NCBI GenBank assembly: GCA_031552815.1
Contig: JAVBMG010000008.1
Coordinates: forward strand, 54,666 to 118,665
Reading direction: 5' to 3'
Source: Opitutales bacterium
GTDB lineage: Bacteria > Verrucomicrobiota > Verrucomicrobiia > Opitutales > JAVBMG01
DNA length: 64,000 bases
This document shows positions 48,417-64,000 of this stretch, one piece after another (within the stretch, counting starts at the first letter, position 1; every line of letters begins with the position of its first letter). Made by a program: the position numbers and the translations under genes. Under the pieces are notes generated by a model that was given only the letters and a program-made list of their open reading frames with translations, ran no database searches and was not told the DNA's origin.

Positions 48417-48422
48417 TCCGCC

Positions 48423-49427
48423 ATGACAATCAAGAGAACCATTATGTTTGCGGTAGCATGCTTTGCCATGCTGAATGCTACCGTGACGTCCTCTGCCAAG
48501 GACAATAAAAAAACTTCGGGTAATCCGATCTTTGAAGGCTGGTATGCCGATCCCGAGGGAATTATTTACGGAAATGAATACTGGATTTTCCCGACCTATT
48601 CGGATCGTTATGAGAAGCAGATATTCTTTGATGCTTTCTCATCAAAGGATTTGGTCGAATGGACGAAACATGAAAAAATTATTGATTCATCACGGGTAAA
48701 GTGGGCAAAGAAAGCCATGTGGGCACCTTCTATGATCAAGAAGGACAACAAGTATTATTTCTTCTTTTCGGCCAATGATGTCCACGAAGGTGAAATCGGA
48801 GGTATCGGGGTTGCTGTTGCGGATAAACCGCAAGGACCGTACAAGGATCTGCTGGGTAAACCGTTGCTCAGTCAGATCATTAACGGAGCGCAACCGATCG
48901 ACCAGTTTGTATACCGTGACGATGACGGTAGCTATTACATGTATTATGGCGGTTGGGGGCATTGTAATGTTGTTAAGCTCAACAAGGACTTTACCGGAAT
49001 CGAGTCTTTTGATGACGGCACGTATTTCAAGGAAGTTACGCCGGAGCGTTATACTGAGGGGCCTTGTATGTTCAAGAAAGATGGGAAGTATTACTTCATG
49101 TGGTCAGAAGGCGGTTGGGGTAATCCGGATTATTCAGTAGCTTATGCCATAGCAGATAGTCCGTTGGGACCCTTCAAACGTATCGGAAAAATCCTCGAAC
49201 AGGATGCAAGTATCGCAACGAGTGCTGGGCACCATTCTGTCATTCATAATGAAGGTGCCGACGAGTGGTATATTGTTTATCATCGTCGTCCGTTGAGTGA
49301 AACGGCGGCAAATAATCGTGCTACCTGTATTGACCGGATGTACTTTGATGAGAAAGGGTTTATCAAACCCGTGAAAATGACTTTTGAGGGAGTTCCCCCA
49401 TCAAGGGTGAAATCGCCGAAGAAATAA
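48423..49427 (+). CDS. secreted GH43-family glycoside hydrolase
   Basis: Signal peptide, NPIFEGWYADPEG (catalytic Asp region), and WAPSMIK and TEGPCMFK motifs of the five-bladed propeller. Confidence 0.8.
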   Translation: MTIKRTIMFAVACFAMLNATVTSSAKDNKKTSGNPIFEGWYADPEGIIYGNEYWIFPTYSDRYEKQIFFDAFSSKDLVEWTKHEKIIDSSRVKWAKKAMWAPSMIKKDNKYYFFFSANDVHEGEIGGIGVAVADKPQGPYKDLLGKPLLSQIINGAQPIDQFVYRDDDGSYYMYYGGWGHCNVVKLNKDFTGIESFDDGTYFKEVTPERYTEGPCMFKKDGKYYFMWSEGGWGNPDYSVAYAIADSPLGPFKRIGKILEQDASIATSAGHHSVIHNEGADEWYIVYHRRPLSETAANNRATCIDRMYFDEKGFIKPVKMTFEGVPPSRVKSPKK

Positions 49428-49448: not shown

Positions 49449-49488
49449 AACGGTGGCATGGAAATAACATGCTACCGTTTATTTTTTC
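49449..49488. terminator. bidirectional terminator formed by an inverted pair of the motif
   Basis: AACGGTGGCATG-(7 nt)-CATGCTACCGTT, with one G-U pair in RNA, followed by TATTTTTTC. It lies between convergent GH43 and dsbD-like genes and abuts the dsbD stop. Confidence 0.7.
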
Positions 49489-51563: not shown

Positions 51564-51647
51564 TACGATGTCCAAAGAGCGGATTTTATCAAGTAATAGA
51601 ATACAGGCCCGGTTCTCCAACGGCAAAAATACTGTTTTTGTTTGCTT

Positions 51648-52688
51648 ATGCGCATGTATTATCCCTATGTTCGATTGCTTTCGAATCGTAAAATGCTGAG
51701 CATCATAAACAAATATGTACAGTGGTCATGGGCGGAAGCGCTGAGAGGCGCTCTCTGCATGTTACCGTCCATCGTTCTTTGCTTGCTTGGTAAACCGGTT
51801 TACGGTTTGGAAATCGGTATTTGCAGTATTCCGTTGGCCATGGTCGGCATACAACCGGAGCGTCAAGACAGGCTTCGCTTGCTGTTTGCAGTAGTCATGC
51901 TTTCCATTGTGTTCGGACTTGGAGTTGTCCTTCCCGGTGTTTGGTGGATGGATATGATTTCCGTATTCCTGGTCGTTTATGCGACGGTTCCCTTGGCTGT
52001 TTTTACGCGGATTGGCCTGCTTGCTTATCTGATTCTCTTACCCTCGTTTGTTGTGGCTGTCAGCAATCATTCATCAGCGGATAGCGGCTTGCCCATTTCC
52101 TTGCTTTTATTTTCGAGCGGTGTGTGGATTGTCATCGTGAATTATCTCTTTCCAGAAAAAAAAGAGAAAAAACGGAAGAAGGCTTCTCCCCGTGTTCCTG
52201 AGATTCCCAAGATTCATAGATTGGGTCTTCTATTTGCCTGTGCCATTGTGGGAACCATGTATATCGGTTATTATCTTGAAATCAAGGATCCTGCCTGGGC
52301 GGCGATTGCTGCGACGCTGATTATCCGTCCGCATGATGAAATGCTTAAGTTCCGGGGGATTGTTCGTGTCATGGCTACGACCGGCGGTATCTTATTGGCT
52401 TTTTCCATGATGCCGTCCGCTGAAAATAATTGTGTGTTGGGTATTTATCTGTTCGGCATAGCGGTTATCATTATTGCGATGCGCAAAATTCAATGGTACT
52501 TGTTTCCGGCAGGTATGGCATTGCTTCTGGTTTTACTCTATAATAAGCAGGAGCCGAGTGATTTTATCACCGTGTTGAATTTCGGTCTGATCAGGAATAC
52601 GATTGGTTCCATGGTTGCACTTTATTTTGGCTTGTGTATTCCGTGGATGATTGGCCGCGTATTAGCTGAATTTCGCAAAAATAACTAG
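51648..52688 (+). CDS. polytopic integral membrane protein (FUSC/ArAE-like, tentative)
   Basis: About 9-10 hydrophobic helices and a central basic loop KKEKKRKK. No catalytic motif. The family call rests on topology only. Confidence 0.45.
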   Translation: MRMYYPYVRLLSNRKMLSIINKYVQWSWAEALRGALCMLPSIVLCLLGKPVYGLEIGICSIPLAMVGIQPERQDRLRLLFAVVMLSIVFGLGVVLPGVWWMDMISVFLVVYATVPLAVFTRIGLLAYLILLPSFVVAVSNHSSADSGLPISLLLFSSGVWIVIVNYLFPEKKEKKRKKASPRVPEIPKIHRLGLLFACAIVGTMYIGYYLEIKDPAWAAIAATLIIRPHDEMLKFRGIVRVMATTGGILLAFSMMPSAENNCVLGIYLFGIAVIIIAMRKIQWYLFPAGMALLLVLLYNKQEPSDFITVLNFGLIRNTIGSMVALYFGLCIPWMIGRVLAEFRKNN

Positions 52689-53181: not shown

Positions 53182-54240
53182 ATGAATACGAAGGAACTTA
53201 TTAATATAGGATTACAAAAAGATGCATCGGACGTTCACCTTTGTGAAGGTGATCCTTTGGTTCTTCGTGTTGACGGTGTGGTTAGCAAATTTCCCGAATA
53301 TCCGGTAACAAAAGAAAATTTGGATGAGGTCGTAGATAGCTGGATTACCGTGGCGCAGCGAAAAGGCTTTGTTGAATCGATGCATGCGGTTGACTTTGCG
53401 ACCAATATTGACGGGCAGGATATGCGCTGTCATATGTTCCTTTCAGGCGGAAAGCGTTGTATCGCCATCCGTTTCATGCGGGCAAAGATTCCGACCATGG
53501 ATGACCTCATGTTGCCCAAGGCGTTTCAGCAAATTATTAAGGATGGCCGTCCGACCGGATTAATTCTGGTCACCGGTTATACCGGCTCCGGTAAATCCAC
53601 GACACTCGCAGCCTCCTTGAACTGGTTAAACCAGAACGAGCCCTTGAATATTGTTACTTTGGAACACCCGATCGAATACCGTTACAAGCAGGAGAAAAGT
53701 ATTATCCGCCAGAGAGAAGTAGGCCGGGATGTTCATGACTTTAACGCGGGAATGGTAGATGCCATGCGTGAAGACCCTGATGTGATTCTGATCGGTGAGT
53801 TGCGTGATGCCGAAACCGTGAAAGCAGCGGTGTCTGCCGCGGAAACAGGACACTTGGTGTTTGGAACATTGCACACGCGTACGGCAGCATCAACTATTAG
53901 TCGTATTTTTGACGTGGTTCCTGCCGATGAACGTGACCAAATTCGCACCATGGTGGCTTCATCTTTGCTGGCGGTTATCGGTCAGCGACTGGTTCCGAAA
54001 ATCAGTGGCGGCCGTGTGGCTGTTTTTGAATTGATGGTAAACTGCCCGGCTGTGGCTGGGGCAATCCGTGAAAACCGCCCCGGACAGCTTGCGAATGAAA
54101 TCGCGGTAAAAAAAGAGCTGGGAATGATTGACTTTGATACTTGTTTATTAAACTACGTCCGGGATAAGGTAATCACACCTGAGGACGCCATAGCCACTTC
54201 TGACCGTCCTGATGAGCTGAAAAAACGCTTGGGCCGATAA
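53182..54240 (+). CDS. pilT: PilT/PilU-family type IV pilus retraction ATPase
   Basis: 352 aa. Walker A GYTGSGKST, Asp-box/Walker B DPDVILIGELRD, His-box GHLVFGTLHT and a C-terminal AIRENRPGQL (AIRNLIRE-like) motif. Confidence 0.88.
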   Translation: MNTKELINIGLQKDASDVHLCEGDPLVLRVDGVVSKFPEYPVTKENLDEVVDSWITVAQRKGFVESMHAVDFATNIDGQDMRCHMFLSGGKRCIAIRFMRAKIPTMDDLMLPKAFQQIIKDGRPTGLILVTGYTGSGKSTTLAASLNWLNQNEPLNIVTLEHPIEYRYKQEKSIIRQREVGRDVHDFNAGMVDAMREDPDVILIGELRDAETVKAAVSAAETGHLVFGTLHTRTAASTISRIFDVVPADERDQIRTMVASSLLAVIGQRLVPKISGGRVAVFELMVNCPAVAGAIRENRPGQLANEIAVKKELGMIDFDTCLLNYVRDKVITPEDAIATSDRPDELKKRLGR

Positions 54241-54253
54241 TCTATAAGCACTA

Positions 54254-56194
54254 ATGAAACAAACACTAAACAGTCTTGCCAAAGCCGGTTTGAAAAAGGG
54301 AACCTTCGGGATATCTCTTCTGATGCTTGCCATGCCGCTTGCGCTGGAAGCGCAGTTCGTGATTGCCATTGACGGAGCAGTGAACAATGCGGCGCAAAAT
54401 GCAAATGCTGAAGCTTCGGAAAAGGATATGCAAGTACAGCAGGCTCCGCAAAATCCAAAAAGTCCTTTGGACAAGATGATTCCTTATTTCAGCCAGGACG
54501 ACCAACCGATTCCCCGCGTAATGCAGGCGCTTGGCCGTTCAAACGGTATCAGTATCATTTGTGATCCGAATATTGACGGAAAAGTCTATGTGGAATTTTA
54601 TAACATCAGCCTGCGCGGTGCCTTGGATGCGATTTGCGATCCTTACGGTTTTTATTGGGAACTGGAACCGAATGGCTGGGTATCTATTCGCAGGACAAAG
54701 ACCATTATTTATCATGTGGAATATCCGCGTCTGGAACGTACGGGAACCGCCACCTCGGAAATCAACCTTGGAAACGTAGGCTATAGTAATAATAATAATA
54801 ATATGAACGGAGGAAGTTCCGGTGGCTCTTCGCGCGGCAGTGGCAGTGGTGGTGGCGGAAGCGGAAATAATGAAGAAGATGAAGATAAAGCCAGTGTCAA
54901 GGTTGAGCAGAAGAATGATGATCCTTTCTGGACAAAGCTGGAAACAGAATTGAAGAGTGTACTTATTGATGATAAGACAGAAAAAATCACATTTAATCGT
55001 TTTTCGGGAACCGTTCAAGTGACTGCCGGGCGCAAAACACACCAATATGTAACGGATTATCTTGGATCCATCAACATGCGGATCGGGATGCAGGTAGAAA
55101 TTGTGGCCAAGATTGTCGAGGTGCAATTGGATGACCAGCACAAACTGGGTATTGACTGGCGCCAGGCAGCAACGAGTATCGGCGGTAAAAATGGATTGCA
55201 GATCGGTCAGCCGGAACTGTCACCTTCTACGGGGGAAATCATGGGTGACGTGATCGGAAACACAAATATAATGAAATTCGGTAGTTTTGAATTTTCTCCG
55301 GATACCTTTTCCGGAACCATCGGTCTCGGTGACATCAGCGCAATGATTTACGCATTGTCGCAACAAGGAACCGTGAATACGATTTCATCACCGCGGATTG
55401 TAACGACCAATAACCAAACAGCGTATATCAAGGATACGAACGATAAGCCCTTCTTCCAGTTGCAGCAGTCTGCCGAATATCGTAATTATGATAATAACAA
55501 CGGAACCGATTCTACCTACCGTAGTTATCAGATTAATACCATTTCCATCGGTACTATCATGGCGGTAACGCCGCAGGTGGCGAATAACGGGGATATCACT
55601 TTGGATGTCATGCCGGCATTAACCCGTTTGAAAGATACCGCGACTTCGCCGGACAAATTGTCAAATGCTCCCGACCTTCAGGTTAAGCAGGCATCGACGA
55701 TTGTTCGTTTGCGTAGCGGGGAAACAGCCGTTATCGGCGGTTTGATTACGGATGCGGAAGGCGTGATGACACGCGGCGTTCCTTTCCTCGAAGACATTCC
55801 CTTTATCGGTAAATACCTGTTTCAGTCGGAAGCCACCTATCATACGAAAAGTGAATTGGTCATTTTCTTGACGCCGCGTATTATTAAACCGGGATCCTTG
55901 ATTGATATTGATGAGGAGACCAAGCGGAATGCGGTGAGAAATCATACCGTAACCCCGGTCAAGGCTCCGTCGATGCCGACAGGCATTTCTGATATTCGTG
56001 GTGCGAATGGTGAATATCATGACGGTTATCGTTACGATGGCAATGTTTACAATCAGGTCAGTTCCGACGGTAGCAACTATAACCAGGGAAACTACCGCGG
56101 ATCAAATACGGATGAGATCACGGACGAAGGCTTGGGGGGAGATGATCCGAGGCGAACCAAGCTCAAACCGGTCGAAAATGTAAGTTTATTTTAA
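54254..56194 (+). CDS. secretin (PilQ/MshL/GspD family outer-membrane channel)
   Basis: Signal peptide. The C-terminal secretin domain carries SSPRIVTTNNQTAYI and VPFLEDIPFIGKYLF...SELVIFLTPRII. There is an internal N/G/S-rich low-complexity linker. Confidence 0.85.
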   Translation: MKQTLNSLAKAGLKKGTFGISLLMLAMPLALEAQFVIAIDGAVNNAAQNANAEASEKDMQVQQAPQNPKSPLDKMIPYFSQDDQPIPRVMQALGRSNGISIICDPNIDGKVYVEFYNISLRGALDAICDPYGFYWELEPNGWVSIRRTKTIIYHVEYPRLERTGTATSEINLGNVGYSNNNNNMNGGSSGGSSRGSGSGGGGSGNNEEDEDKASVKVEQKNDDPFWTKLETELKSVLIDDKTEKITFNRFSGTVQVTAGRKTHQYVTDYLGSINMRIGMQVEIVAKIVEVQLDDQHKLGIDWRQAATSIGGKNGLQIGQPELSPSTGEIMGDVIGNTNIMKFGSFEFSPDTFSGTIGLGDISAMIYALSQQGTVNTISSPRIVTTNNQTAYIKDTNDKPFFQLQQSAEYRNYDNNNGTDSTYRSYQINTISIGTIMAVTPQVANNGDITLDVMPALTRLKDTATSPDKLSNAPDLQVKQASTIVRLRSGETAVIGGLITDAEGVMTRGVPFLEDIPFIGKYLFQSEATYHTKSELVIFLTPRIIKPGSLIDIDEETKRNAVRNHTVTPVKAPSMPTGISDIRGANGEYHDGYRYDGNVYNQVSSDGSNYNQGNYRGSNTDEITDEGLGGDDPRRTKLKPVENVSLF

Positions 56195-56228
56195 AGCAGA
56201 ACAGAACAAAAGCACTACTAACACTTCT

Positions 56229-57998
56229 ATGAACACACGCTCAACTAACACAACAAATACGTCGTCCCATGTAAATGGGAACGGTGCTGTTGTGCCGTTA
56301 TCGGACGGGGAGCAGGTGCAGGAGCCTAAGGTTATCCGTTTTGAACCGGATTTTCTCTGGATGCCGCAGGTTTTGGTTCAGCAAGGAGTCGGCGCAAGCA
56401 GTATCAAGCTGGCTACGGATTATTATAATCAGCAGGGCCGTCGGATGAGTTATGGGGCTGTTCTGATTGAGTTGGGATTGATGACTCCGCCTTCCGTAGC
56501 CAAGATGATTGCCGATTATTACGGATTTGAAACGATTTCTTTGGGTGGTTTGCGGGTGACTCCTGAGGTGGCAAAACTCTTGCCCGCAAACATTTCACGC
56601 CGCCGCAAGGTGATCCCGATTCAGCGCGAAGGGCAAACGTTGACGGTGGCAGTTGCCGATCCGTCCGAACCGGGGTTTGGTGAAGTGCCACAGTTATTGG
56701 GTCGTGTCGGCATGCGGAATATTATTTTCAAGATTGCCTTGGAAGCGGAAGTGATCGGGAAACTGGAAGAAGTGTGGGCGCCGAAAATTGACGTTACCGA
56801 TCCGGCTCGATTCTTTGACTTGCTCGTTAATGAGGCAGTGATGATGGGGGTTTCCGATATTCACGTGGTACCGGAAGAAACACATATGCAGATCAAGTTC
56901 CGTCTGGACGGATTTATTCATCCCTATCGGGTGATTGATGGTTCCAACAAGGAAGCCATTAATGCGCGCTTCAAGATGAAAGGCGGCTTGGATATTGCTG
57001 TTAAAAACGTACCGCAGGACGGACGTGCCAAACTAGTGTTGAACGGAAAAAAGGTAAATCTGCGTTTCTCTTCTTTGCCGACGCTTTATGGAGAGAGCTT
57101 GGTCATGCGTATTCTTGACCAGTCCAAGGGCATTGTTCCGTTGGAAAAGCTTGGTATGCTGGATGATACCAAGGCCACGATTTTAAAAGCCGCCAATGCT
57201 GCTTACGGGTTTACCTATTTTGTAGGTCCTACCGGTTCCGGTAAAACAACGTCGCTGTATTCCATTATTAATACCTTGGATGTCAGTAATTACACGATGA
57301 TGACCTTGGAGGATCCGGTGGAATATGAATTCCGTAATATTCGCCAGACGGAAATTACCGATAATCTGACCTTTGCTTCCGGATTGCGTTCGTTGTTGCG
57401 TCAGGATCCCGATTATATTCTGGTCGGTGAAACGCGTGACAAGGAAACCGCGGAGTTGTCCATGCGCGCTGCCTTGACAGGCCATACCGGGTTTTCGACC
57501 TTGCACGCCAATACAGCCTTGGGTGGAATCGCCAGATTGATTGATATCGGGGTGGATCCCAGCATCATCATCAGCGCGGTGAATATCTTCGTATCGCAGC
57601 GTCTGGTGCGCCGTCTTTGTACCTGTAAGGAGCCGCATCCGCATGCGCAGGCAGTGGCGGATCACTACAGTATCCAGTTAAAACCGGGGCAAATGCTGTA
57701 TCGTCCGAAGCCGGGAGGTTGTGGACTATGCAACGGAACAGGATACAAAGGACGCGTCGGATTGTACGAATGCCGTCCGGTTGAGCCTTTTGCCGATATT
57801 ATTGTCAAGTCAGGCAAAGATGCCTTGCGCGATTGCGAGGCGGAAGCAAGAAGACTTTATGCAATGGAAATGGAAAAAGAAGGAAGTTCCATTTTCAGAA
57901 CCATGCGCCGTGAAGGTTTTATCAAGGCTGCCATGGGGCTTACTTCCATCGAGGAAGTGGTTGCACAAACAGAACCCGAAGCCGGGTTCGGTTCCTAA
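56229..57998 (+). CDS. PilB/GspE/MshE-family assembly ATPase
   Basis: T2SSE N-terminal domain, Walker A GPTGSGKTT, Asp-box LRQDPDYILVGETRD, His-box GHTGFSTLHAN, and a tetracysteine CTC...CGLCNGTGYKGRVGLYE. Confidence 0.9.
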   Translation: MNTRSTNTTNTSSHVNGNGAVVPLSDGEQVQEPKVIRFEPDFLWMPQVLVQQGVGASSIKLATDYYNQQGRRMSYGAVLIELGLMTPPSVAKMIADYYGFETISLGGLRVTPEVAKLLPANISRRRKVIPIQREGQTLTVAVADPSEPGFGEVPQLLGRVGMRNIIFKIALEAEVIGKLEEVWAPKIDVTDPARFFDLLVNEAVMMGVSDIHVVPEETHMQIKFRLDGFIHPYRVIDGSNKEAINARFKMKGGLDIAVKNVPQDGRAKLVLNGKKVNLRFSSLPTLYGESLVMRILDQSKGIVPLEKLGMLDDTKATILKAANAAYGFTYFVGPTGSGKTTSLYSIINTLDVSNYTMMTLEDPVEYEFRNIRQTEITDNLTFASGLRSLLRQDPDYILVGETRDKETAELSMRAALTGHTGFSTLHANTALGGIARLIDIGVDPSIIISAVNIFVSQRLVRRLCTCKEPHPHAQAVADHYSIQLKPGQMLYRPKPGGCGLCNGTGYKGRVGLYECRPVEPFADIIVKSGKDALRDCEAEARRLYAMEMEKEGSSIFRTMRREGFIKAAMGLTSIEEVVAQTEPEAGFGS

Positions 57999-58029
57999 AA
58001 ACAAAATAATAAACTAAGATATAAATCAT

Positions 58030-58782
58030 ATGAAAAACACAATGAAAAGTAAGAAGGGTTTTACCCTTATTGAAATGTTGGGCGTTCTCGCCATTATCGC
58101 GATCCTCGTTAGTATCGTCGCTGTTGGCGTATTGAAGGCTATCAACCGTTCACGTATCGTTTCCACGGTCGCTAACTTCAAAACCTACGAAACAGCCATG
58201 TTGGCATTCGTAACTCTGCCGGAAACTTTGGGATTTCTCCCGATCACTGAAGGCGCAAGTAACTACACTACATCTGTTCCAACGATAGGCGGAACGCCAG
58301 GAGCAAATGCAACTGACCCAGATTTGTATACACTTGGTCAAGTATTCTTGGGCGCAGGAGTTCTTGAGCGCATGCCAACTTTCCGCGTAGGTCGTGAATT
58401 GCCTTTTGCTTCCGGTTCTGATGTTCAGGCAGTGTGGAGTCAATCAGACGTTGCATGGTTGGATACACCAGTGGCTAATGCAAAGTTCACAACACAAAAG
58501 AAAGCTCGCTGTGAGGCTGTTGTAGCTACCGCAACGATTGGTCTTGGTACGAATTTTGCTCTTGGCGGTGGCGGTACAGCATCTGTACCTGTAGGTGCAA
58601 CGATCGCTTATGTAGTTGTTCCGCAGGTATCTTCAGCAGACGCTGTTGAATTGTCCAAGGAAGTAAATGGTTCGTTGAACAAGGCGACATTGACTAACGT
58701 AAAGCAAGACGACGGTCGTTTGACATTTGCAGTAGCAAGTGGCGGAATGACTGATGTTTATTACTATATCGGTAATATGTAA
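58030..58782 (+). CDS. type IV pilin / pseudopilin with a prepilin-type N-terminal cleavage-methylation signal (250 aa)
   Basis: Leader MKNTMKSKKG followed by FTLIEMLGVLAIIAILVSIV (Gly-1, Phe+1, Glu+5). The C-terminal globular part has a single Cys. Confidence 0.85.
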   Translation: MKNTMKSKKGFTLIEMLGVLAIIAILVSIVAVGVLKAINRSRIVSTVANFKTYETAMLAFVTLPETLGFLPITEGASNYTTSVPTIGGTPGANATDPDLYTLGQVFLGAGVLERMPTFRVGRELPFASGSDVQAVWSQSDVAWLDTPVANAKFTTQKKARCEAVVATATIGLGTNFALGGGGTASVPVGATIAYVVVPQVSSADAVELSKEVNGSLNKATLTNVKQDDGRLTFAVASGGMTDVYYYIGNM

Positions 58783-58825
58783 TATGTGATGCGTTGAATT
58801 CGTAAGAGAAAACGATCAATTAACT

Positions 58826-58859
58826 ATGATAGGATAAGCAGTTTTGCTTATCCTATCAT
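58826..58859 (+). terminator. strong hairpin immediately downstream of the pilin gene
   Basis: A perfect 15-bp stem ATGATAGGATAAGCA-GTTT-TGCTTATCCTATCAT, 44 nt after the pilin stop. No long U-tract, so partial termination or a stabiliser role is plausible. Confidence 0.65.
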
Positions 58860-58875
58860 TCAATTAAGGTAGATA

Positions 58876-60180
58876 ATGAAACATGCGGTAATCATTTGGG
58901 AAAAAACAGTCTATTTCCGGACAAAGGATGGATGGCAGAAGAATGCCATAGGAAAAACGGAAAATGCTGTAAATGTCCTTGCTGATAATTTCAAGAAGGG
59001 ATCAAAGTTTTGTATTGCTTACGATCCGTATATTCTCAGTACGGAAGTGGTTGATTGTCCCAAAGGTCCCCGCACAGTCATGCGCGAATCGTTCCTTGAA
59101 ACGCATGATATGATTTCAAATGAGGAAACAGCGTGGGGTTACCAACCGCAATGGTCCAGCGGAGGAGGTGGTTTTTCCACATATTTGTCTTATGAAACCA
59201 ATCCCTCTTTGCTTCCGATGATGCAAAAAGCGGAAGAAGAAAAGGTGAAAATAAGCAGTGTTTATCCATTAGCGACTCTCGTTTCCCAAACTATAGGTGC
59301 CCCGGGAAAGACTTCTGTCTTTCTGATGATTGATAGCGAAATAAAACAGGCCTATATGGCTATTTCCTCGTTCACAGGAATGCGTGCCATACGCAAGATT
59401 TTCAATTCGGAGGATCGTCCGGTAGACCTGTGGGCGGAAATACAGCTTTTCTTGGCAGAATATGGAGTGGCTTTCGATTTTGTCGGACACTCAAAACCCC
59501 AGATTAAAATATTTCAGGCGTCGAATACGGACGTGAAGACAGAATGTCCCTTCTGGTCCGAAATGAATAATGCCTGCTCGGTTGATATACAAGCGTTTGA
59601 CGCACTCGAAAAACTACTTTTTGCGGTTCCGTCTCGTCATATAGGATCCATGACGGCAGGATTCCCTCAGGTGCTGAATATTGATCCTGTCTTTCAAGGA
59701 TTGGCAGTAGTGACCTTATTGGCATTGGGCTTTGTCGGATGGTTGTATTGGAGTGAACAGCAAGAGTTTCTGGAACAGCAACAGGAAATTACCAACCAGA
59801 AAAATGCTCAAGCAATAGTCAAAAATCAATTATTGAAAAATAAAAAGGAAATTGAATCCTTAAAGGTTTTGTTTTCGGAAGATAATCTTTTGGCCAGCAA
59901 GGAGAAAATCCGCTTTATTCAAGGCTTCTCCGAAGGACTACCCTTGGACTACACCGTAACTAATCTGCGTATTTTCCAGGATAATGCTTTTCAGATGGAT
60001 GGTATTTTATGGAATTTGAATGCAAAAACAACCAAGGAAAACGTTGCGAATCCGATCATTATGGCTTTGGAGCGCAGTGTGAAAGGTGTTCTTGTGGACA
60101 GTAAGAAAACACAGTTTAAAGGTCAGGAGCGGGGAGAACTGACTATTGAAGGTTCTATTCCTAAACAATTTGTGAAATAA
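58876..60180 (+). CDS. bitopic pilus/secretion assembly protein, GspL-like or PilM-PilN-fusion-like (topology-based)
   Basis: 434 aa: ~270-aa cytoplasmic domain, one TM (GLAVVTLLALGFVGWLYW), a coiled coil (QQEFLEQQQEITNQKNAQ) and a ~120-aa C-terminal domain. Position is directly after the pilin gene. No sequence motif was recognised. Confidence 0.45.
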   Translation: MKHAVIIWEKTVYFRTKDGWQKNAIGKTENAVNVLADNFKKGSKFCIAYDPYILSTEVVDCPKGPRTVMRESFLETHDMISNEETAWGYQPQWSSGGGGFSTYLSYETNPSLLPMMQKAEEEKVKISSVYPLATLVSQTIGAPGKTSVFLMIDSEIKQAYMAISSFTGMRAIRKIFNSEDRPVDLWAEIQLFLAEYGVAFDFVGHSKPQIKIFQASNTDVKTECPFWSEMNNACSVDIQAFDALEKLLFAVPSRHIGSMTAGFPQVLNIDPVFQGLAVVTLLALGFVGWLYWSEQQEFLEQQQEITNQKNAQAIVKNQLLKNKKEIESLKVLFSEDNLLASKEKIRFIQGFSEGLPLDYTVTNLRIFQDNAFQMDGILWNLNAKTTKENVANPIIMALERSVKGVLVDSKKTQFKGQERGELTIEGSIPKQFVK

Positions 60181-60183
60181 CCC

Positions 60184-60744
60184 ATGAATAATAAGAAAAA
60201 CAAGGTAAAATTGTCTCCGGTATGGATTATCTTTTGGGTATTTTTACTTGGAGGCATTGGTGGCGGACTGTACTATCGTGAGGTTATGACAGAAGAGGCA
60301 CTTATGGCTATTGCCCAATTGGAGAGTGAATTGAGTACAGAAAAAAATGCGGTTTCAGCCTTGCAAAAAGACTTTTCGAATGCGAAAGCGCAGGAAGCGC
60401 GTGATCGTGCCAATAAATTTAAAATGTCGATGTTGAGCAGGGCAGAAGTGAATGCAATCACTTCGAGCTATGCCGAACAATGGAACGTCAATAAAATCCG
60501 CGAGGATGACAATGACGAGTATATTCTGAGCCGTTATCAGTTAATGCGCGGTTCCAGCGGGGTTGCGGACTGGGAGATGATTTACAATACGATTTTGGAC
60601 TTGGACAAGCGAAGCGGCTTTGTCCTGGATACCTTGGATATAAGCACTGCAGGTGACAACCGCCAGAGGATGTTTTCCCGGGTGAGTATTGCTTTGCAGA
60701 TTTACATCAAGAAACCCGGTGATGAGGGGTTGTCGAAGAAATAA
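60184..60744 (+). CDS. bitopic protein with PilO/GspM-like topology
   Basis: 186 aa: short N-terminus, TM (VWIIFWVFLLGGIGGGLYY), a coiled coil and a ~100-aa C-terminal domain. It starts 4 nt after the upstream stop. Confidence 0.4.
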   Translation: MNNKKNKVKLSPVWIIFWVFLLGGIGGGLYYREVMTEEALMAIAQLESELSTEKNAVSALQKDFSNAKAQEARDRANKFKMSMLSRAEVNAITSSYAEQWNVNKIREDDNDEYILSRYQLMRGSSGVADWEMIYNTILDLDKRSGFVLDTLDISTAGDNRQRMFSRVSIALQIYIKKPGDEGLSKK

Positions 60745-60755
60745 GGAGAAATGAA

Positions 60756-61247
60756 ATGAAGAAAAAAAATCTAGTTTTTGTTTTTTGTTTGCTTGCTGGT
60801 TTTTCGGTGGCATTTGCGCAAAATAGCACTGGTTTCAAACCAAGTACGATTCCTGTTCGGGATGGTGTGGCTGCAACATTTCCGGGAGCGAATCCGGTAG
60901 CATCCGCAAACAATACCGGCAGTTATGCGAGCAGCACTCCTATTGATAAGGATTCGCCGCAGTACGCAGACATGATTTATAAAATGCGCGAATCCGTGCA
61001 ACGTATTGCCTCGGAATACGGTAATCCGGCTTTTGCCCAGGTCTTTACCAACGATAAGGACCGTGCGGAGGAAATCCGCAATAAACTGAAGGTCTTGGAA
61101 TCCCATGAAGCTTTGGCCCAGATCAATGAGGCGCTGAGCAAGCGGGAGAGCGAACTCCGCATGGAAATTGAACGTCTGGAAGCCCGTTTAAATGATCTTA
61201 AATACCGCGTGAACGAAGCACAGAAGCTTCTGGACGGAACCAAATAA
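60756..61247 (+). CDS. secreted coiled-coil protein of unknown function
   Basis: Signal peptide (LVFVFCLLAGFSVAFAQ) and a C-terminal heptad-rich segment. Operonic position in the pilus cluster. Confidence 0.4.
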   Translation: MKKKNLVFVFCLLAGFSVAFAQNSTGFKPSTIPVRDGVAATFPGANPVASANNTGSYASSTPIDKDSPQYADMIYKMRESVQRIASEYGNPAFAQVFTNDKDRAEEIRNKLKVLESHEALAQINEALSKRESELRMEIERLEARLNDLKYRVNEAQKLLDGTK

Positions 61248-61306
61248 ATCTTATTTGAAACTCTTTATTATCAGAATAAACATTTACACAGGTTAATTCA
61301 TCAATC

Positions 61307-62752
61307 ATGTTTAATGATACTTCCATTCAGTTGACTGAGATTGTCTTGCGTGTGGCCAACCATCTGGCTTTTCGCGGGCAAATGGATGAGTTGCCTGCGG
61401 AGGAAATACGTGCCAATATTTTGGCGGAATTAAGTCTCTTGGGTGCCGTGATTACCGAACAGTCGGAAGGGGTTTGGCACGTAAGTGATTTTGACAGCAA
61501 CGAAACTTGCCTGTTACGCGAAGAACAAGGAAACTACCATGTCGAATACATCAGCAATATTGACCCAATTACAGAAGAATGCGCAGCTTCGTCTTCAGGA
61601 GATGGAAGCGGAATGGAAGAAGACCCTCTTCGAGAAGTTTCGCACTATTTGCCGCGAGGAAATGATGGAGGTTATGAAGGATCTTTTGCAGACGACAGCA
61701 ATGGAATCCAATCAGTTGGTTACTTCGCTTCGCAAGGAGATGGAGGAAAGCAGCAAGGCTCAGGAGAGTATTATCCTTCAGGAGCTGGTGAAAACGGAAT
61801 CCAGGCTGGATGGATTGACGGATCAATTCAGGAAGAGCACGGAAGAATCGGAAGCGACATCCCAGGAAACGGCAAAGATGATCAAGGAAGTCGCCAGGGA
61901 GACTTTGATGGCGCAGCAGGTGATCAGCAAGGAAATGACGGAGAGTGCGAGCAAGGTTTCAGCCGGAAGCACAGTGTTGGTACTGAAATCAGCGATTCTG
62001 GCGATACTGCTAACGATAGTGATCTTGGTGGGCGGCGTATTTCTGATGAAAATGATGGATTGGCTTCCGGTAGTATCGACGCAGGAGGAACTGGCAGCGA
62101 TGCAGCAGGAAAATCAGAAATTGAGCAAACTGAGAACGGAGATTGCGGAACTGAACAAGGATCTGGAAGCGAAAAAGGCAGAAATGATTTTGTTGGACAT
62201 GAGACGCGGGGAACTGGACCAGGAAATAAAGAAATCCATGGCGGTCCAGGCAACGACTGTGCAGACCTTGAACAATCTTCAGGAGCAGACCAAGAAACTG
62301 CAAACCTTGCAGGAACAATTCCGCTTCAAGCTGCTTCAGGGGGATACGGGCGGAGTGTTCGTGGAGACAGCGGACGGATCGATGCCGTTCATGATGAACG
62401 GAAAGAGTTACATCCGGGTGAGGGAATAAAGGAAGCTTCCGTGGACGACGAATTGGTCGAACTCTCCATTGAGAAACGGATCAAGCGGGCGGAAATGTAT
62501 GCCTTGGAGCGTGAACTGCTCCTTCAGGAAAAGGAGCGTAAGCTTTTGGCAAAAAAACTGGATGAACTAAGTGCATTGCTTTCCGCAAGAAACATGGAGT
62601 TTGCCGAAGTTCACCAGAGTTTACAGGAATTGAAACAAATCAGAGAAAATCAGAAACAGGAAGTACAGACTTTTTGCAGTGAGCTTGATAATTTGCGTGA
62701 GGAATTTGACTCCTTGCAGAAGCGGCTATCCGGATTGTCTTCAGACGTTTGA
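61307..62752 (+). CDS. 481-aa ORF (frame 2): plausible N-terminal ~80 aa and C-terminal ~100 aa, with a G/D/S/E-rich centre that looks like off-frame translation
   Basis: The frame is uninterrupted from the ATG at 61307. The central 61560-62430 segment overlaps the better-looking frame-0 ORF and uses GGA for almost every Gly. See findings. Confidence 0.3.
   Translation: MFNDTSIQLTEIVLRVANHLAFRGQMDELPAEEIRANILAELSLLGAVITEQSEGVWHVSDFDSNETCLLREEQGNYHVEYISNIDPITEECAASSSGDGSGMEEDPLREVSHYLPRGNDGGYEGSFADDSNGIQSVGYFASQGDGGKQQGSGEYYPSGAGENGIQAGWIDGSIQEEHGRIGSDIPGNGKDDQGSRQGDFDGAAGDQQGNDGECEQGFSRKHSVGTEISDSGDTANDSDLGGRRISDENDGLASGSIDAGGTGSDAAGKSEIEQTENGDCGTEQGSGSEKGRNDFVGHETRGTGPGNKEIHGGPGNDCADLEQSSGADQETANLAGTIPLQAASGGYGRSVRGDSGRIDAVHDERKELHPGEGIKEASVDDELVELSIEKRIKRAEMYALERELLLQEKERKLLAKKLDELSALLSARNMEFAEVHQSLQELKQIRENQKQEVQTFCSELDNLREEFDSLQKRLSGLSSDV
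61539..62429 (+). CDS. bitopic coiled-coil protein (296 aa) of unknown function, pilus-cluster associated
   Basis: AAGGAA lies 6 nt upstream of the ATG at 61539. Third codon positions are G/C-rich, as in neighbouring genes. Heptad-rich N-terminal half, clear TM (VLVLKSAILAILLTIVILVGGVFLM), a second coiled coil and a small C-terminal domain. Confidence 0.6.
   Translation: MSNTSAILTQLQKNAQLRLQEMEAEWKKTLFEKFRTICREEMMEVMKDLLQTTAMESNQLVTSLRKEMEESSKAQESIILQELVKTESRLDGLTDQFRKSTEESEATSQETAKMIKEVARETLMAQQVISKEMTESASKVSAGSTVLVLKSAILAILLTIVILVGGVFLMKMMDWLPVVSTQEELAAMQQENQKLSKLRTEIAELNKDLEAKKAEMILLDMRRGELDQEIKKSMAVQATTVQTLNNLQEQTKKLQTLQEQFRFKLLQGDTGGVFVETADGSMPFMMNGKSYIRVRE
62441..62752 (+). CDS. 104-aa coiled-coil protein (alternative reading of the 3' end of the 61307 ORF)
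   Basis: GTG at 62441 is preceded by AAGGAAG with 5-nt spacing, 12 nt after the stop of the 61539..62429 gene. Regular heptad composition. Confidence 0.45.
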   Translation: MDDELVELSIEKRIKRAEMYALERELLLQEKERKLLAKKLDELSALLSARNMEFAEVHQSLQELKQIRENQKQEVQTFCSELDNLREEFDSLQKRLSGLSSDV

Positions 62753-62773
62753 TATCAATAAACATATTTTAAA

Positions 62774-63463
62774 ATGCGCTATTTATCTTTCATTGGTTTT
62801 TTCTTGTTCGCTTTGGGTTTTGGCATGGTGTCGGCTCAGGAAGATGTATCTTTGTTACCTGCTCCCGGGCGTGATGCCTCTGCACCTGTTTCAAAGTCAA
62901 GCGGTGCGGATGAAGTCGTAGTGCTTAAACTATCTGATGAAGTATCGAATGCGGAAAACAAGAACCAGGCAAAGCAAACTTCAGGGAGTAATGATGCATC
63001 GGCTAAAAAAGAGCCAAAACCGGCAGTCAATGTGAATGCCAATTCGAATCCTCCTGTTGCCAAGCCTATTGCGGCATCTCAGCCGAAAACACTTGCTTCA
63101 AACAAGGAAAAAGACCAGAAACCGATTCCGGCCGAGTTGAAGGAACCCGATAAGGATGGCATCGTCATGTTGGTGCGTCTGGTCGAATTAAATGCTTCCG
63201 CGCTTAACAATCCTTTTGAAATCAGAGTCCAACCAACGATTGCCACGGTTGATACGGTGATCGAAGTCGGCGGTATCATTCGCGGTTATACGGAAGGGCA
63301 GCATACGGCCATTGTGAACGGGCGGGTATACTCGCAGGGGGATATGGTCGATGGATTCAAGATTTATTTGATTTTGGAAAAAAGTATCATCGTTGAATAC
63401 AACAATAAATACGTGAATATTCCGCGTGACCGTAAAATCACGCTGCGTTTGCCGCAAAGTTAG
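62774..63463 (+). CDS. secreted protein with a GspB/MshK/PilP-like C-terminal domain
   Basis: Signal peptide and a K/P/A/N-rich linker. The C-terminal pattern GIIRG..GQHTAIVNGRVYSQGDMVDGFKIYLILEKSIIVEYNNKYVNI resembles the A-I-x-N-G-x-x-Y-x-x-G-D...V-x-x-I motif of T2SS-B/PilP-type proteins. Confidence 0.5.
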   Translation: MRYLSFIGFFLFALGFGMVSAQEDVSLLPAPGRDASAPVSKSSGADEVVVLKLSDEVSNAENKNQAKQTSGSNDASAKKEPKPAVNVNANSNPPVAKPIAASQPKTLASNKEKDQKPIPAELKEPDKDGIVMLVRLVELNASALNNPFEIRVQPTIATVDTVIEVGGIIRGYTEGQHTAIVNGRVYSQGDMVDGFKIYLILEKSIIVEYNNKYVNIPRDRKITLRLPQS

Positions 63464-63472
63464 GTAATCACT

Positions 63473-64000
63473 ATGCCATCCTATGTAGTCAGGTATGTAA
63501 CAGAGACAGGAGCAAAGAAGAAGGAGGTTTTCTTTGCTCCTGATATGGTTTATTTGCGCGGGGTTTTACAGCGGAAGAATTATTGGCCGTTGAGTATCGA
63601 AGTGCAGGAAGGCGGCTTCCGGAAATATAAGACGCGGCTTTCTGCCGGGGATACGATTTCCATTTTGGACCAGGTCGAAATCCAGTTGCAGGTGAGCATC
63701 AATGTAGATGACGCGTTCAGGAATTTGGCTGAGGAGGTGCAAACCAAGAAAGTTAAGTTTGTTGTATCCCGTATATCAGACAGCATTGATTCCAATGGGC
63801 GTGTGGCTGATGCCTGTGGCCAGTTTCCTAATATTTTTCCAGATCATATTCGGCAAATGATTTCTGTCGGGGAGGATACGGGAAAACTCGCTCCGTCTTT
63901 TACCCGGGTGATAGAATATTTCAAGGCTGCTGATACATTGATGGGAACCATCAAAAATGCCAGTATTTATCCTTCTCTTGTGCTTGGCGCGATGATGGTT
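63473..64000 (+). CDS. PilC/GspF-family inner-membrane platform protein (5' part, truncated by the window end)
   Basis: Open frame from the ATG at 63473 to the last base; it is not in the ORF track because it has no stop. First T2SSF domain pattern FPNIFPDHIRQMISVGEDTGKLAPSFTRVIEYF, followed by the first TM (IYPSLVLGAMMV). Confidence 0.85.
   Translation, partial: MPSYVVRYVTETGAKKKEVFFAPDMVYLRGVLQRKNYWPLSIEVQEGGFRKYKTRLSAGDTISILDQVEIQLQVSINVDDAFRNLAEEVQTKKVKFVVSRISDSIDSNGRVADACGQFPNIFPDHIRQMISVGEDTGKLAPSFTRVIEYFKAADTLMGTIKNASIYPSLVLGAMMV

What the first reader, a model, noticed from the sequence alone, without database searches (positions are those of the whole stretch)
53182..64000. Atypically organised type IV pilus / T2SS-like cluster
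All genes are on one strand with short gaps, in this order: PilT-type retraction ATPase, secretin, PilB/GspE-type assembly ATPase, one 250-aa pilin, at least six proteins without recognisable motifs, then the PilC/GspF platform. Classical T4aP loci separate pilT, pilQ (in pilMNOPQ) and pilBCD. MSHA and T2SS loci lack pilT. This window contains no prepilin peptidase and no minor-pilin set, although the cluster continues beyond the edge. A retraction ATPase leading an operon that also contains its secretin and a single pilin suggests a compact, dynamically retracting fibre. Such a fibre could serve DNA uptake, adhesion to glycans or secretion. I do not recognise this architecture from described systems.
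Basis: partly seen in the sequence, partly recalled or inferred. Interest (0 to 1): 0.68.

Follow-up and report, generated by a model that had tools for sequence, protein, structure and literature searches.

The report
Opitutae one-operon retractile pilus cluster
This is a real type IV pilus gene cluster with an unusual gene order that is conserved only in one class of Verrucomicrobia (Opitutae); several of its "unknown" genes are probably very divergent standard pilus parts, and one is a 0.9-kb gene nested out of frame inside another gene.

Summary
On the + strand, with gaps of 3-93 nt, lie PilT (53182), a short MshL-like secretin (54254), a PilB-type ATPase (56229), a 250-aa prepilin (58030), five further ORFs plus one nested ORF, and the N-terminus of PilC/GspF (63473 to the window edge).

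The ATPase has 70-75% identical relatives only in Opitutae (Ereboglobus, Termitidicoccus, Puniceicoccales and Opitutaceae MAGs). Every related locus recovered has the same gene order, though two are incomplete. Five relatives continue past pilC with a second prepilin; a sixth has an unrecognised 287-aa gene there. Five of them add InlB-repeat surface proteins, some of 2762-4867 aa.

No T4aP-PilB/PilQ, MSHA, T2SS or Tad equivalog model reaches its cut-off. The ATPases sit closest to T4aP PilB and PilT.

Several "unknowns" are probably divergent alignment-complex parts:
- the 434-aa protein has a PilN-like C-terminal half;
- the 186-aa protein resembles PilO/GspM;
- the 229-aa protein ends in a GspB-like domain.

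Unexpectedly, a 296-codon gene (61539-62429) lies wholly inside the 481-codon ORF 61307-62752 in another frame. The outer frame has no stop codon in 7 of 8 loci, against 2-11 expected.

Verdict: a new, lineage-specific variant of a type IVa-like retractile pilus machine. Its function has not been tested.

The parts
53182..54240 (+). PilT-type retraction ATPase (352 aa), first gene of the cluster
   Evidence: TIGR01420 scores 367.7 bits against a cut-off of 319.1. The best solved relatives are Aquifex and Pseudomonas PilT at 264 bits. Walker A (GYTGSGKST), Walker B (DVILIGELRD), a His box and an AIRENR motif can be read directly in the sequence.
54254..56194 (+). Outer-membrane secretin (646 aa) with a signal peptide, an Asn/Gly/Ser-rich Secretin_N_2 region and a long low-complexity C-terminal tail
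   Evidence: Pfam Secretin E 4.9e-40 and Secretin_N_2 E 3.4e-8. The best NCBIfam model is MshL at 204 bits, below its cut-off of 250; GspD scores 151 and PilQ 140. Solved structures do not discriminate: PilQ 69.7 bits against GspD 68.7.
56229..57998 (+). PilB-type extension ATPase (589 aa) with an MshEN/T2SSE_N-type N-domain and a C4 zinc motif
   Evidence: T2SSE E 2.6e-96 and MshEN E 5e-10. PilB scores 389.6 bits, GspE 366.2, both below their cut-offs. Among solved proteins, T4aP PilB (321, 308 and 303 bits) outscores GspE (263). The canonical c-di-GMP motif is not matched. Close relatives occur only in Opitutae.
58030..58782 (+). Prepilin (250 aa), presumed major pilin; predicted cleavage KKG|FTLIEM
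   Evidence: N_methyl E 6.5e-8; TIGR02532 scores 30.4 bits against a cut-off of 16.3. It carries the only class-III signal motif in the window.
58876..60180 (+). 434-aa bitopic protein: ~265-aa cytoplasmic domain, TM helix, coiled coil and periplasmic alpha-beta-beta-alpha-beta-beta domain. Proposed fusion with a PilN-like C-terminal half (GspL/MshI-style architecture)
   Evidence: No Pfam or NCBIfam hit. A 33-sequence profile has Myxococcus PilN (3jc8_N) as its best solved match, E 7.9e-4, over the TM-coil-periplasmic part. The AF2 model is poor (pLDDT 53) but gives that order of secondary structure. The family has 119 representative clusters, and the 10 sampled members have no Pfam domain.
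60184..60744 (+). 186-aa bitopic protein, PilO/GspM-like
   Evidence: hhalign against the C-terminal half of the 434-aa family gives probability 78%, E 1.8e-5. The single-sequence AF2 model is low-confidence (pLDDT 50) with a TM-coil-alpha-beta-beta-alpha-beta-beta order. Its top Foldseek matches to solved structures are PilO (3jc8_O, 2rjz, 5uvr), EpsM (1uv7, TM 0.60) and PulM (8a9x), none with E <= 0.001.
60756..61247 (+). 163-aa secreted coiled-coil protein with a conserved EYGNPxFAQxFTND motif; role unknown; absent from L009
   Evidence: The signal peptide and motif are read. Only coiled-coil noise appears in Pfam. L009 has no homologue.
61307..62752 (+). ORF A (481 aa): conserved ~85-aa N-domain, ~300-aa acidic Gly/Ser/Asp-rich spacer and C-terminal coiled coil. 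No signal peptide or TM helix, so presumably cytoplasmic
   Evidence: The N- and C-terminal parts show a normal coding pattern in this frame (mismatch at codon positions 1/2/3 of 0.30/0.18/0.61 and 0.46/0.31/0.63). The frame has no stop across nested gene B in 7 of 8 loci, against 2-11 expected. The N-domain is conserved in 7 loci and has no Pfam or solved-structure match.
61539..62429 (+). Nested gene B (296 aa), +1 frame relative to A: conserved cytoplasmic N-terminal helix, TM helix, periplasmic coiled coil and a small conserved C-terminal beta motif (FRFKLxxG..GGVFVE)
   Evidence: Window and L001 align over 891 nt without gaps. Amino-acid identity is 47% in this frame and 31% in frame A; mismatch by codon position is 0.40/0.30/0.56. 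A conserved ATG with a purine-rich upstream stretch is present. Gene callers found it in the relatives. DUF3450 is hit in 4 of 6 members, best E 2e-6, probably reflecting coiled-coil composition.
62774..63463 (+). 229-aa secreted protein with a low-complexity linker and a C-terminal GspB/PilP-style small beta domain; proposed link to the secretin
   Evidence: T2SSB E 2.1e-5 and CdsD_C E 1.3e-5, both just below the gathering score. T2SSB is hit in 4 of 6 family members and CdsD_C in 3 of 6. The C-terminal ~100 aa are conserved in all loci.
63473..64000 (+). N-terminal 176 aa of the PilC/GspF inner-membrane platform, cut by the window edge
   Evidence: T2SSF E 2.3e-14. GspF scores 64.6 bits, more than PilC models at 31.7, on this partial sequence. 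It is 65% identical to the L001 homologue. Full-length homologues in the relatives are 399-408 aa.

Best explanation
The region encodes most of a type IVa-like, retractile pilus machine specific to the class Opitutae (Verrucomicrobiota). It is probably transcribed as one operon starting just upstream of pilT.

Proposed mechanism (inferred from the well-studied T4aP and T2SS machines):
1. The 250-aa prepilin is processed by a prepilin peptidase encoded elsewhere.
2. It is extracted from the inner membrane at the PilC platform and polymerised by the PilB-type hexameric ATPase.
3. The fibre leaves the cell through the short MshL-like secretin.
4. The 434-aa protein (cytoplasmic domain fused to a PilN-like half) and the 186-aa PilO/GspM-like protein form the inner-membrane alignment complex.
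5. The 229-aa protein, with its GspB/PilP-style C-terminal domain, couples that complex to the secretin.
6. PilT depolymerises the fibre, giving retraction.

The 163-aa secreted coiled-coil protein and the nested A/B pair are lineage-specific accessories of unknown role. B is a bitopic coiled-coil protein. A is a cytoplasmic protein whose ~300-aa spacer is read from the same DNA as B in another frame.

In relatives the operon continues with a second, larger prepilin and often with InlB-B-repeat surface proteins, some of them giant. This favours surface adhesion, with or without twitching, as the output.

Shown here: gene content, gene order, conservation, family assignment of the four core proteins, and the dual-frame constraint.
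Inferred: the roles of the accessory proteins, operon status, retraction and adhesion.
For: Core parts were identified by curated models. PilT passes its NCBIfam cut-off. The ATPases are closest to solved T4aP PilB and PilT.

Gene order is identical in the 8 related loci recovered: Ereboglobus luteus, Termitidicoccus mucosus, a Puniceicoccales MAG (L008), and other MAG and metagenome contigs whose organism was not shown; two of the loci are incomplete. ATPase similarity falls sharply outside this clade, from 70% to 52% to below 41%. A Verrucomicrobiales locus with a 38%-identical ATPase has a different order.

Accessory proteins:
- PilN-like: profile match to solved Myxococcus PilN, E 7.9e-4.
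- PilO/GspM-like: hhalign E 1.8e-5, and top fold matches that are almost all PilO, EpsM or PulM.
- GspB-like domain in 4 of 6 family members.

Gaps between genes are tight, and no convincing internal terminator was found. A second prepilin follows pilC in relatives.
Against: - No PilM/actin-like domain was detected in the 434-aa protein. Its AF2 model is poor and its Foldseek matches are meaningless.
- The PilN, PilO and GspB assignments rest on weak or sub-threshold scores and on low-confidence models.
- No prepilin peptidase and no canonical minor-pilin/PilY1 set lies in the window or in the related loci.
- The secretin and the PilC fragment score slightly better against MSHA and T2SS models than against T4aP models.
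- There are no expression or pilus-imaging data for any of these organisms. Promoter and terminator scans are not above background.
Confidence: 0.7

Rival explanations
1. It is a T2SS-like protein secretion machine. A short pseudopilus built from the prepilin pushes substrates through the secretin, for example the neighbouring giant InlB-repeat proteins of the relatives, or glycosidases. PilT resets or disassembles the pseudopilus.
For: - The PilC fragment scores better against GspF (64.6 bits) than against PilC models.
- The 186-aa model matches EpsM and PulM as well as it matches PilO.
- A GspB-type domain is present.
- Large secreted Flg_new_2 proteins lie directly downstream in 5 relatives.
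- Glycoside hydrolases lie upstream in the window.
Against: - A dedicated PilT is conserved as the first gene in every locus whose 5' end is present. This is not a T2SS feature (own knowledge; Denise et al., PMC6668835, place PilT with pili).
- The ATPase is nearer to T4aP PilB than to GspE.
- There are no GspC, GspH, GspI, GspJ or GspK homologues.
- GspD and GspE equivalogs fall far below their cut-offs.
- L005 has the machine without Flg_new_2 genes.
- The pilin, at 250-283 aa, is much larger than GspG.
Confidence: 0.15
2. It is an MSHA-type pilus locus that has been rearranged.
For: MshL is the best-scoring secretin model at 204 bits. The ATPase carries a Pfam MshEN domain.
Against: - MshL is below its cut-off of 250.
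- The Pfam MshEN domain is shared by the T4aP-type PilB ATPases recovered here.
- The c-di-GMP-binding motif typical of MshE is not matched.
- No MshM/MshN-type genes and no mshBACD-type pilin set were found.
- pilT lies inside the locus.
Confidence: 0.05
3. The nested A/B arrangement is not dual coding. Only B and two small flanking genes (A-N and A-C) are real, and the open A frame over B is a by-product of composition or codon bias.
For: - The middle of A shows no amino-acid-level constraint (31% identity; synonymous-site divergence of B is normal at 0.46).
- The region is purine-rich and T-poor.
- Gene callers annotate B and a small A-C gene separately.
- In GC-rich L009 the test is weak on its own (p 0.09).
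Against: - Synonymous-codon shuffles that keep B's protein and codon usage expect 2-11 stops. No stop is observed in 7 loci spanning 48-63% GC.
- The other alternative frame has the expected number of stops, which serves as an internal control.
- Pooled, 0 of 543 codons that precede AA/AG/GA-starting codons end in T, against 193 of 1477 elsewhere (p 1.5e-28). The loci are related, so this p-value is nominal.
- Control genes of the same operon show no such avoidance.
- A-N has no stop codon of its own in any locus.
- L010, the one locus that lacks A-N and A-C, has a stop in that frame.
Confidence: 0.25

Closest known systems
Type IVa pilus machine (Myxococcus xanthus / Pseudomonas aeruginosa PilA-B-C-D-M-N-O-P-Q-T)
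   Same: - PilB-type and PilT-type ATPases are the nearest solved relatives.
- It has a T2SSF platform, a secretin and a prepilin.
- It has a PilN-like and a PilO-like bitopic pair.
- Like Myxococcus, most parts sit in one cluster (own knowledge).
   Different: - The order pilT-secretin-pilB-pilin-...-pilC is not that of any model organism.
- No recognisable PilM or PilP, no minor-pilin/PilY1 set and no pilD in the locus.
- The secretin is short and MshL-like, without a recognised AMIN domain.
- PilB and PilQ equivalog cut-offs are not reached.
- It has extra lineage-specific genes (the 163-aa protein and the nested A/B pair).
MSHA pilus locus (Vibrio cholerae mshIJKLMNEGF-BACDOPQ)
   Same: - The secretin scores best against MshL.
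- The ATPase has an MshEN-type N-domain.
- A fused cytoplasmic-plus-PilN-like protein recalls MshI (own knowledge).
   Different: - MshL is below its cut-off.
- There is no MshM or MshN and no pilin operon.
- The c-di-GMP motif is not matched.
- pilT is encoded inside the locus.
Type II secretion system (GspC-M)
   Same: - The platform fragment scores best against GspF.
- A GspM-like fold and a GspB-like domain are present.
- The 434-aa protein has a GspL-style architecture (cytoplasmic domain, TM helix, periplasmic ferredoxin-like domain).
   Different: - PilT is present.
- GspD and GspE equivalogs are far below their cut-offs.
- There are no pseudopilins GspH-K and no GspC.
- The pilin is about twice the size of GspG.
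'Generic' type IV filament systems of Denise et al. 2019 (PMC6668835), e.g. the Chlamydiae and Bacteroidetes systems
   Same: These are divergent clusters with an ATPase, a platform and a pilin (with or without a secretin) whose assembly proteins escape the HMM profiles. Chlamydiae, like Opitutae, belong to the PVC group.
   Different: Those systems lack PilT. The paper does not mention Verrucomicrobia at all (0 occurrences).
Akkermansia Amuc_1098-1102 pilus-like cluster
   Same: It is a Verrucomicrobia pilus-associated cluster with a secretin.
   Different: The Amuc_1098 family model scores only 67 bits against a cut-off of 750, so this is a different secretin family and a different gene set.
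Long overlapping genes in bacteria (e.g. the Pseudomonas aeruginosa antisense pairs of 957 and 1536 nt, PMC8850804)
   Same: The coding overlap is of similar length (891 nt), is missed by annotation pipelines, and one partner is low-complexity or disordered.
   Different: Here the overlap is on the same strand and fully nested. It is conserved across a whole bacterial class. The outer frame seems constrained only to stay open.

Membership tests
Type IVa pilus (T4aP) | PilT/PilU retraction ATPase | tested here: met
   TIGR01420 scores 367.7 bits against a cut-off of 319.1. Solved PilT proteins match at 264 bits.
Type IVa pilus (T4aP) | PilB assembly ATPase at equivalog level | tested here: not met
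   TIGR02538 scores 389.6 bits against a cut-off of 675.65. PilB is still the best model and the nearest solved relative.
Type IVa pilus (T4aP) | PilQ-type secretin | tested here: not met
   TIGR02515 scores 140.4 bits against a cut-off of 284.35. The generic Pfam Secretin domain is met.
Type IVa pilus (T4aP) | PilM-PilN-PilO-PilP alignment complex | tested here: inconclusive
   - PilN: profile match E 7.9e-4.
- PilO/GspM: fold matches with E >= 7e-3 from a model of pLDDT 50, and hhalign E 1.8e-5.
- A GspB-like domain stands in for PilP, below threshold.
- No PilM signal.
Type IVa pilus (T4aP) | Minor pilin set (FimU/PilVWXE type) and PilY1/PilC adhesin | tested here: not met
   There is one prepilin motif in the 64-kb window. 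Relatives have one further prepilin after pilC. Genes elsewhere in the genome could not be examined.
Type IVa pilus (T4aP) | Prepilin peptidase PilD | not testable with these tools
   None was found among the 30 window ORFs scanned. The rest of the genome is not available: the genome-contig scan and the exact-protein look-ups failed.
MSHA pilus | MshL secretin equivalog | tested here: not met
   TIGR02519 scores 204.2 bits against a cut-off of 250.2.
MSHA pilus | MshE ATPase with the c-di-GMP-binding MshEN motif pair | tested here: not met
   The Pfam MshEN domain is present. The motif as I recall it (not checked against a source), RLGxxLLxxGLLxxxxLxxxLxxQ, is not matched in the window protein or in 7 clade members. 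A relaxed form of the pattern matches two outgroup ATPases near their N-termini; within the clade it matches only one degenerate segment (residue 74) of the window protein, and the strict pattern matches none of the ten sequences tested. Binding was not tested biochemically.
MSHA pilus | mshI-Q gene set and order, with pilT outside the locus | tested here: not met
   The gene order is different, there are no MshM/MshN-type hits, and pilT is the first gene.
Type II secretion system | GspD and GspE equivalogs | tested here: not met
   GspD scores 151.2 bits against 351.35. GspE scores 366.2 against 630.25.
Type II secretion system | GspG plus minor pseudopilins GspH-K | tested here: not met
   Only the N-terminal methylation segment of the 250-aa pilin matches GspG (28.9 bits against a cut-off of 88.85). 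There are no other prepilins in the window.
Type II secretion system | GspC, GspL and GspM assembly platform | tested here: inconclusive
   A GspM-like fold, a GspL-like architecture for the 434-aa protein and a GspB-like domain are seen. No GspC was found.
Tad / Flp pilus | TadA-type ATPase | tested here: not met
   TIGR03819 scores 44.8 bits against a cut-off of 373.15.
Akkermansia Amuc_1098-type pilus cluster | Amuc_1098 family secretin | tested here: not met
   NF042912 scores 67 bits against a cut-off of 750.

The most novel reading that the evidence does not exclude
The operon contains a true, class-wide conserved dual-coding segment. A 296-codon gene for a bitopic membrane protein (B) is nested, in the +1 frame, inside the ~300-codon spacer of a larger cytoplasmic protein (A). 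Selection acts on B's amino-acid sequence and, separately, on A only to keep its frame free of stops, so that A's N-domain stays physically tethered to its C-terminal coil. This would be one of the longest same-strand nested gene pairs known in a cellular genome. It sits in an undescribed Opitutae-specific type IV pilus machine whose alignment proteins have diverged beyond HMM recognition.
Probability: 0.55. Interest if true: 0.75.

Novelty: new variant of a known kind. Interest (0 to 1): 0.55.

Why it matters
- Verrucomicrobia of the class Opitutae are common in termite and cockroach guts, soils and waters. Their surface machinery is essentially unstudied. A conserved, self-contained retractile-pilus operon gives a concrete target for studying adhesion, motility or DNA uptake in cultured species such as Ereboglobus luteus and Termitidicoccus mucosus.
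- The core motor and conduit of type IV filament machines can be kept while the alignment proteins drift beyond profile recognition. This matters for automated classification with TXSScan-type models.
- The nested A/B pair is a clean, statistically strong and phylogenetically replicated candidate for long same-strand dual coding in bacteria. Such cases are rare, and annotation pipelines systematically discard them (PMC5810103, PMC8665328).

Tried and rejected
**Extending the contig.** This failed.
- Exact-protein look-ups of window proteins are not on record.
- The single genome-contig scan, anchored on PilC, returned only an unrelated Nealsonbacteria locus.
- Both metagenome-contig scans, with the B and 434-aa alignments, found nothing.
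- So pilD, further pilins and comEA/comEC in this genome could not be examined.

**Sequence searches of the unknowns that gave nothing.**
- The 434-aa and 186-aa families against Pfam and solved structures, using 6-sequence profiles.
- The A N-domain.
- B, which returned only coiled-coil noise and DUF3450.

**Structure prediction.**
- The AF2 model of the 434-aa protein, built from an 8-sequence alignment, was poor (pLDDT 53). Its Foldseek matches (HIV RT and others, all E > 0.03) are meaningless and I disregard them.

**Readings rejected.**
- MSHA, T2SS, Tad and Akkermansia-type membership: curated cut-offs were not met.
- c-di-GMP control through MshEN: the motif is not matched.
- Chance or composition as the reason for the open A frame: synonymous-codon shuffles and control genes argue against it.
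- A frameshift fusion A-N+B or B+A-C as a sufficient explanation: neither needs the whole frame to be open.

Promoter and terminator scans were not above the shuffled background and were not used as evidence.

Full report
**1. What is in the sequence**

ORF listing and Pfam/NCBIfam scans confirm a same-strand cluster with gaps of 3-93 nt.
- PilT, 53182-54240: TIGR01420 scores 367.7 bits, above its cut-off of 319.1.
- Secretin, 54254-56194: Pfam Secretin E 4.9e-40, plus Secretin_N_2.
- PilB/GspE-type ATPase, 56229-57998: T2SSE E 2.6e-96, plus an MshEN-type N-domain.
- Prepilin of 250 aa, 58030-58782.
- ORFs of 434, 186, 163, 481 and 229 aa.
- The first 176 codons of a T2SSF platform protein, 63473 to the window edge.

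Genes upstream are unrelated: a FUSC-like membrane protein, DsbD, a GH43 enzyme and an alpha-galactosidase. The window holds only one class-III signal motif. None of the 30 ORFs scanned with Pfam is a prepilin peptidase. No tRNA or Rfam match occurs in the window.

**2. Whose cluster it is, and how conserved**

The window's own genome could not be retrieved. The ATPase has relatives at 70-75% identity only in Opitutae: Ereboglobus luteus, another Ereboglobus species, Termitidicoccus mucosus, and Puniceicoccales and Opitutaceae MAGs. Beyond them there is one relative at 52%, then a drop below 41% to PilB proteins of many phyla.

Eight related loci were read: L001, L003, L004, L005, L007, L008, L009 and L010. 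All share this order, though L001 and L008 are incomplete:
- pilT, secretin, pilB, a pilin of ~250-283 aa;
- proteins of ~431-470 aa, ~180-193 aa and ~149-316 aa (the last absent in L009);
- the nested pair, a T2SSB-like protein, pilC;
- a second prepilin of 304-384 aa in five of the six loci that extend past pilC, with TIGR02532 passing its cut-off in 4 of them; in L010 the corresponding 287-aa gene has no family hit.

In five loci a ~340-aa protein and a giant protein (2762-4867 aa) follow. Both carry InlB-B-repeat (Flg_new_2) domains. L005 lacks them. A Verrucomicrobiales locus with a 38%-identical ATPase is organised differently, as pilB-pilC-pilin, with no pilT. The architecture is therefore a conserved trait of one clade and not an accident of this window.

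**3. Which type of system**

No equivalog model reaches its curated score:

| Model | Score (bits) | Cut-off (bits) |
|---|---|---|
| PilB | 389.6 | 675.65 |
| GspE | 366.2 | 630.25 |
| MshL | 204.2 | 250.2 |
| GspD | 151.2 | 351.35 |
| PilQ | 140.4 | 284.35 |
| TadA | 44.8 | 373.15 |
| Amuc_1098 | 67 | 750 |

Against solved proteins, the assembly ATPase is nearer to T4aP PilB (321, 308 and 303 bits) than to GspE (263). The first gene is a real PilT (264 bits). The secretin does not discriminate between types.

The c-di-GMP motif of MshE-type N-domains is not matched in this clade. A relaxed form of the pattern matches two outgroup ATPases; the strict form matches none of the ten sequences tested.

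I conclude that this is a T4aP-like machine with a short MshL-like secretin. It does not qualify as a member of the MSHA, T2SS or Tad families. Denise et al. 2019 (PMC6668835) describe a 'generic' class for such divergent loci. They note that Chlamydiae systems, also from the PVC group, escape classification because their assembly proteins are not recognised.

**4. The "unknown" proteins**

*The 434-aa family.* It has no Pfam hit, even among distant members of its 119 representative clusters. A 33-sequence profile has Myxococcus PilN as its best solved match (E 7.9e-4), covering the TM helix, the coil and the start of the periplasmic domain. The AF2 model is poor (pLDDT 53). It shows two beta-beta-beta-alpha-type cytoplasmic modules, a long TM/coil helix and a C-terminal alpha-beta-beta-alpha-beta-beta unit. 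Its Foldseek matches are meaningless.

*The 186-aa family.* It aligns with the C-terminal half of the 434-aa family by hhalign (probability 78%, E 1.8e-5). Its single-sequence model is also low-confidence. Even so, it has the TM-coil-alpha-beta-beta-alpha-beta-beta order, and its top matches are almost all PilO, EpsM or PulM (E 7e-3 to 0.17; TM up to 0.60).

*The 229-aa family.* It ends in a small domain that hits T2SSB in 4 of 6 members and CdsD_C in 3 of 6.

These results fit a GspL/MshI-style fusion paired with a PilO/GspM-like partner and a GspB/PilP-style secretin coupler. Each assignment is weak on its own. No PilM-like ATPase fold was demonstrated.

*The 163-aa protein.* It is secreted, forms a coiled coil and carries a conserved EYGNPxFAQxFTND motif. 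Its role is unknown.

**5. The nested gene**

The 481-codon ORF A (61307-62752) has three parts:
- a conserved ~85-aa N-domain;
- a Gly/Ser/Asp/Glu-rich middle (net charge -36);
- a C-terminal coiled coil.

Its middle is entirely overlapped, in the +1 frame, by ORF B (ATG 61539 to 62429, 296 aa). B has a highly conserved N-terminal helix, a TM helix, a periplasmic coil and a conserved C-terminal beta motif.

*Comparison of the window with L001.*
- The 891 nt align without gaps.
- Amino-acid identity is 47% in frame B and 31% in frame A.
- B shows the usual codon-position pattern.
- Its synonymous-site divergence (0.46) matches that of neighbouring genes (0.40-0.60).
- The A-N and A-C parts show a normal coding pattern in frame A.

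*Evidence that frame A is kept open.*
- Frame A has no stop across B in 7 of 8 loci, which span 48-63% GC.
- Shuffling synonymous codons of B predicts 2-11 stops. No shuffle reached zero stops in the two AT-richer loci. The probability is 0.01 or less in four others and 0.09 in L009.
- The third frame has exactly the expected number of stops.
- Pooled, 0 of 543 codons preceding AA/AG/GA-starting codons end in T, against 193 of 1477 elsewhere (p 1.5e-28). The loci are related, so this p-value is nominal.
- Control genes in the operon show no such avoidance.
- L010, which lacks A-N and A-C, has a stop in that frame.

Gene callers annotate only B and a small A-C fragment. The simplest reading is that full-length A is translated and its spacer is constrained only to stay open. 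Frameshift or coupling models do not require that. Long non-trivial overlaps are rarely described in bacteria and are excluded by annotation pipelines (PMC5810103, PMC8665328, PMC8850804).

**6. Mechanism and function**

By analogy with T4aP and T2SS machines, which is inference:
- PilB and PilC polymerise the processed pilin.
- The fibre exits through the secretin.
- The PilN-like, PilO-like and GspB-like proteins align the inner- and outer-membrane parts.
- PilT retracts the fibre.

In relatives, the second large prepilin and the neighbouring giant repeat proteins point to adhesion. Secretion of those proteins by a T2SS-like mode is the main rival reading. DNA uptake cannot be assessed without the rest of the genome.

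**7. Verdict**

The cluster is best described as a new, Opitutae-specific variant of a type IVa-like pilus machine, and it contains a notable candidate for long same-strand dual coding.

Noticed in passing
window 61307-62752 (A) and 61539-62429 (B); also L001 4358-5821, L003 15472-16926, L004 15810-17189, L005 7467-8792, L007 15328-16803, L009 14683-16014: A 296-codon gene is nested in the +1 frame inside a 481-codon ORF. The outer frame has no stops in 7 of 8 loci, against 2-11 expected. Current annotations of the relatives omit the outer ORF.
   Followed up: yes
L003 19943-21758, L004 20516-21794, L007 19897-21806, L009 18784-21752, L010 12505-14779: Downstream of the second prepilin, relatives encode a ~340-aa protein and a giant protein (2762-4867 aa), both with InlB-B-repeat (Flg_new_2 / TIGR02543) domains. 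They may be an adhesin or a substrate of the machine. They are absent in L005, and their presence in the window's genome is unknown.
   Followed up: partly
L010 7787-9477; L009 14656-14927: The accessory genes vary between loci. L010 lacks the A N-domain and C-tail, and has a longer (316-aa) homologue of the 163-aa protein. L009 lacks the 163-aa homologue altogether.
   Followed up: partly
window 54254-56194, residues ~175-205 and 560-646: The secretin has an Asn/Gly/Ser homopolymer-like stretch inside the Secretin_N_2 region and an ~85-aa Tyr/Asn/Gly/Asp-rich C-terminal tail after the secretin domain. No lipobox is present in the signal peptide.
   Followed up: no
window 49479-51626 (-) and L007 3420-5591 (-): A DsbD thiol:disulfide interchange gene lies upstream of the cluster, on the opposite strand, in both the window and L007. 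In L007 a cNMP-binding Crp-type regulator sits between DsbD and pilT. In the window a FUSC-like membrane protein (51642-52688) occupies that place.
   Followed up: no
window 9314-15019 (-): A 1901-aa ORF on the minus strand coincides with locally raised G+C (0.55-0.57 against ~0.47 for the window). It was not examined.
   Followed up: no
one search hits P0019-P0029: A set of ~1010-aa PilB-like ATPases, about twice the normal length, appears among the next-best hits. One is annotated as coming from a Patescibacteria MAG.
   Followed up: no
window 46149-49427: An alpha-galactosidase with He_PIG/PKD Ig-like domains and a GH43 glycosidase lie just upstream, consistent with a polysaccharide-degrading lifestyle. 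No link to the pilus cluster was shown.
   Followed up: no
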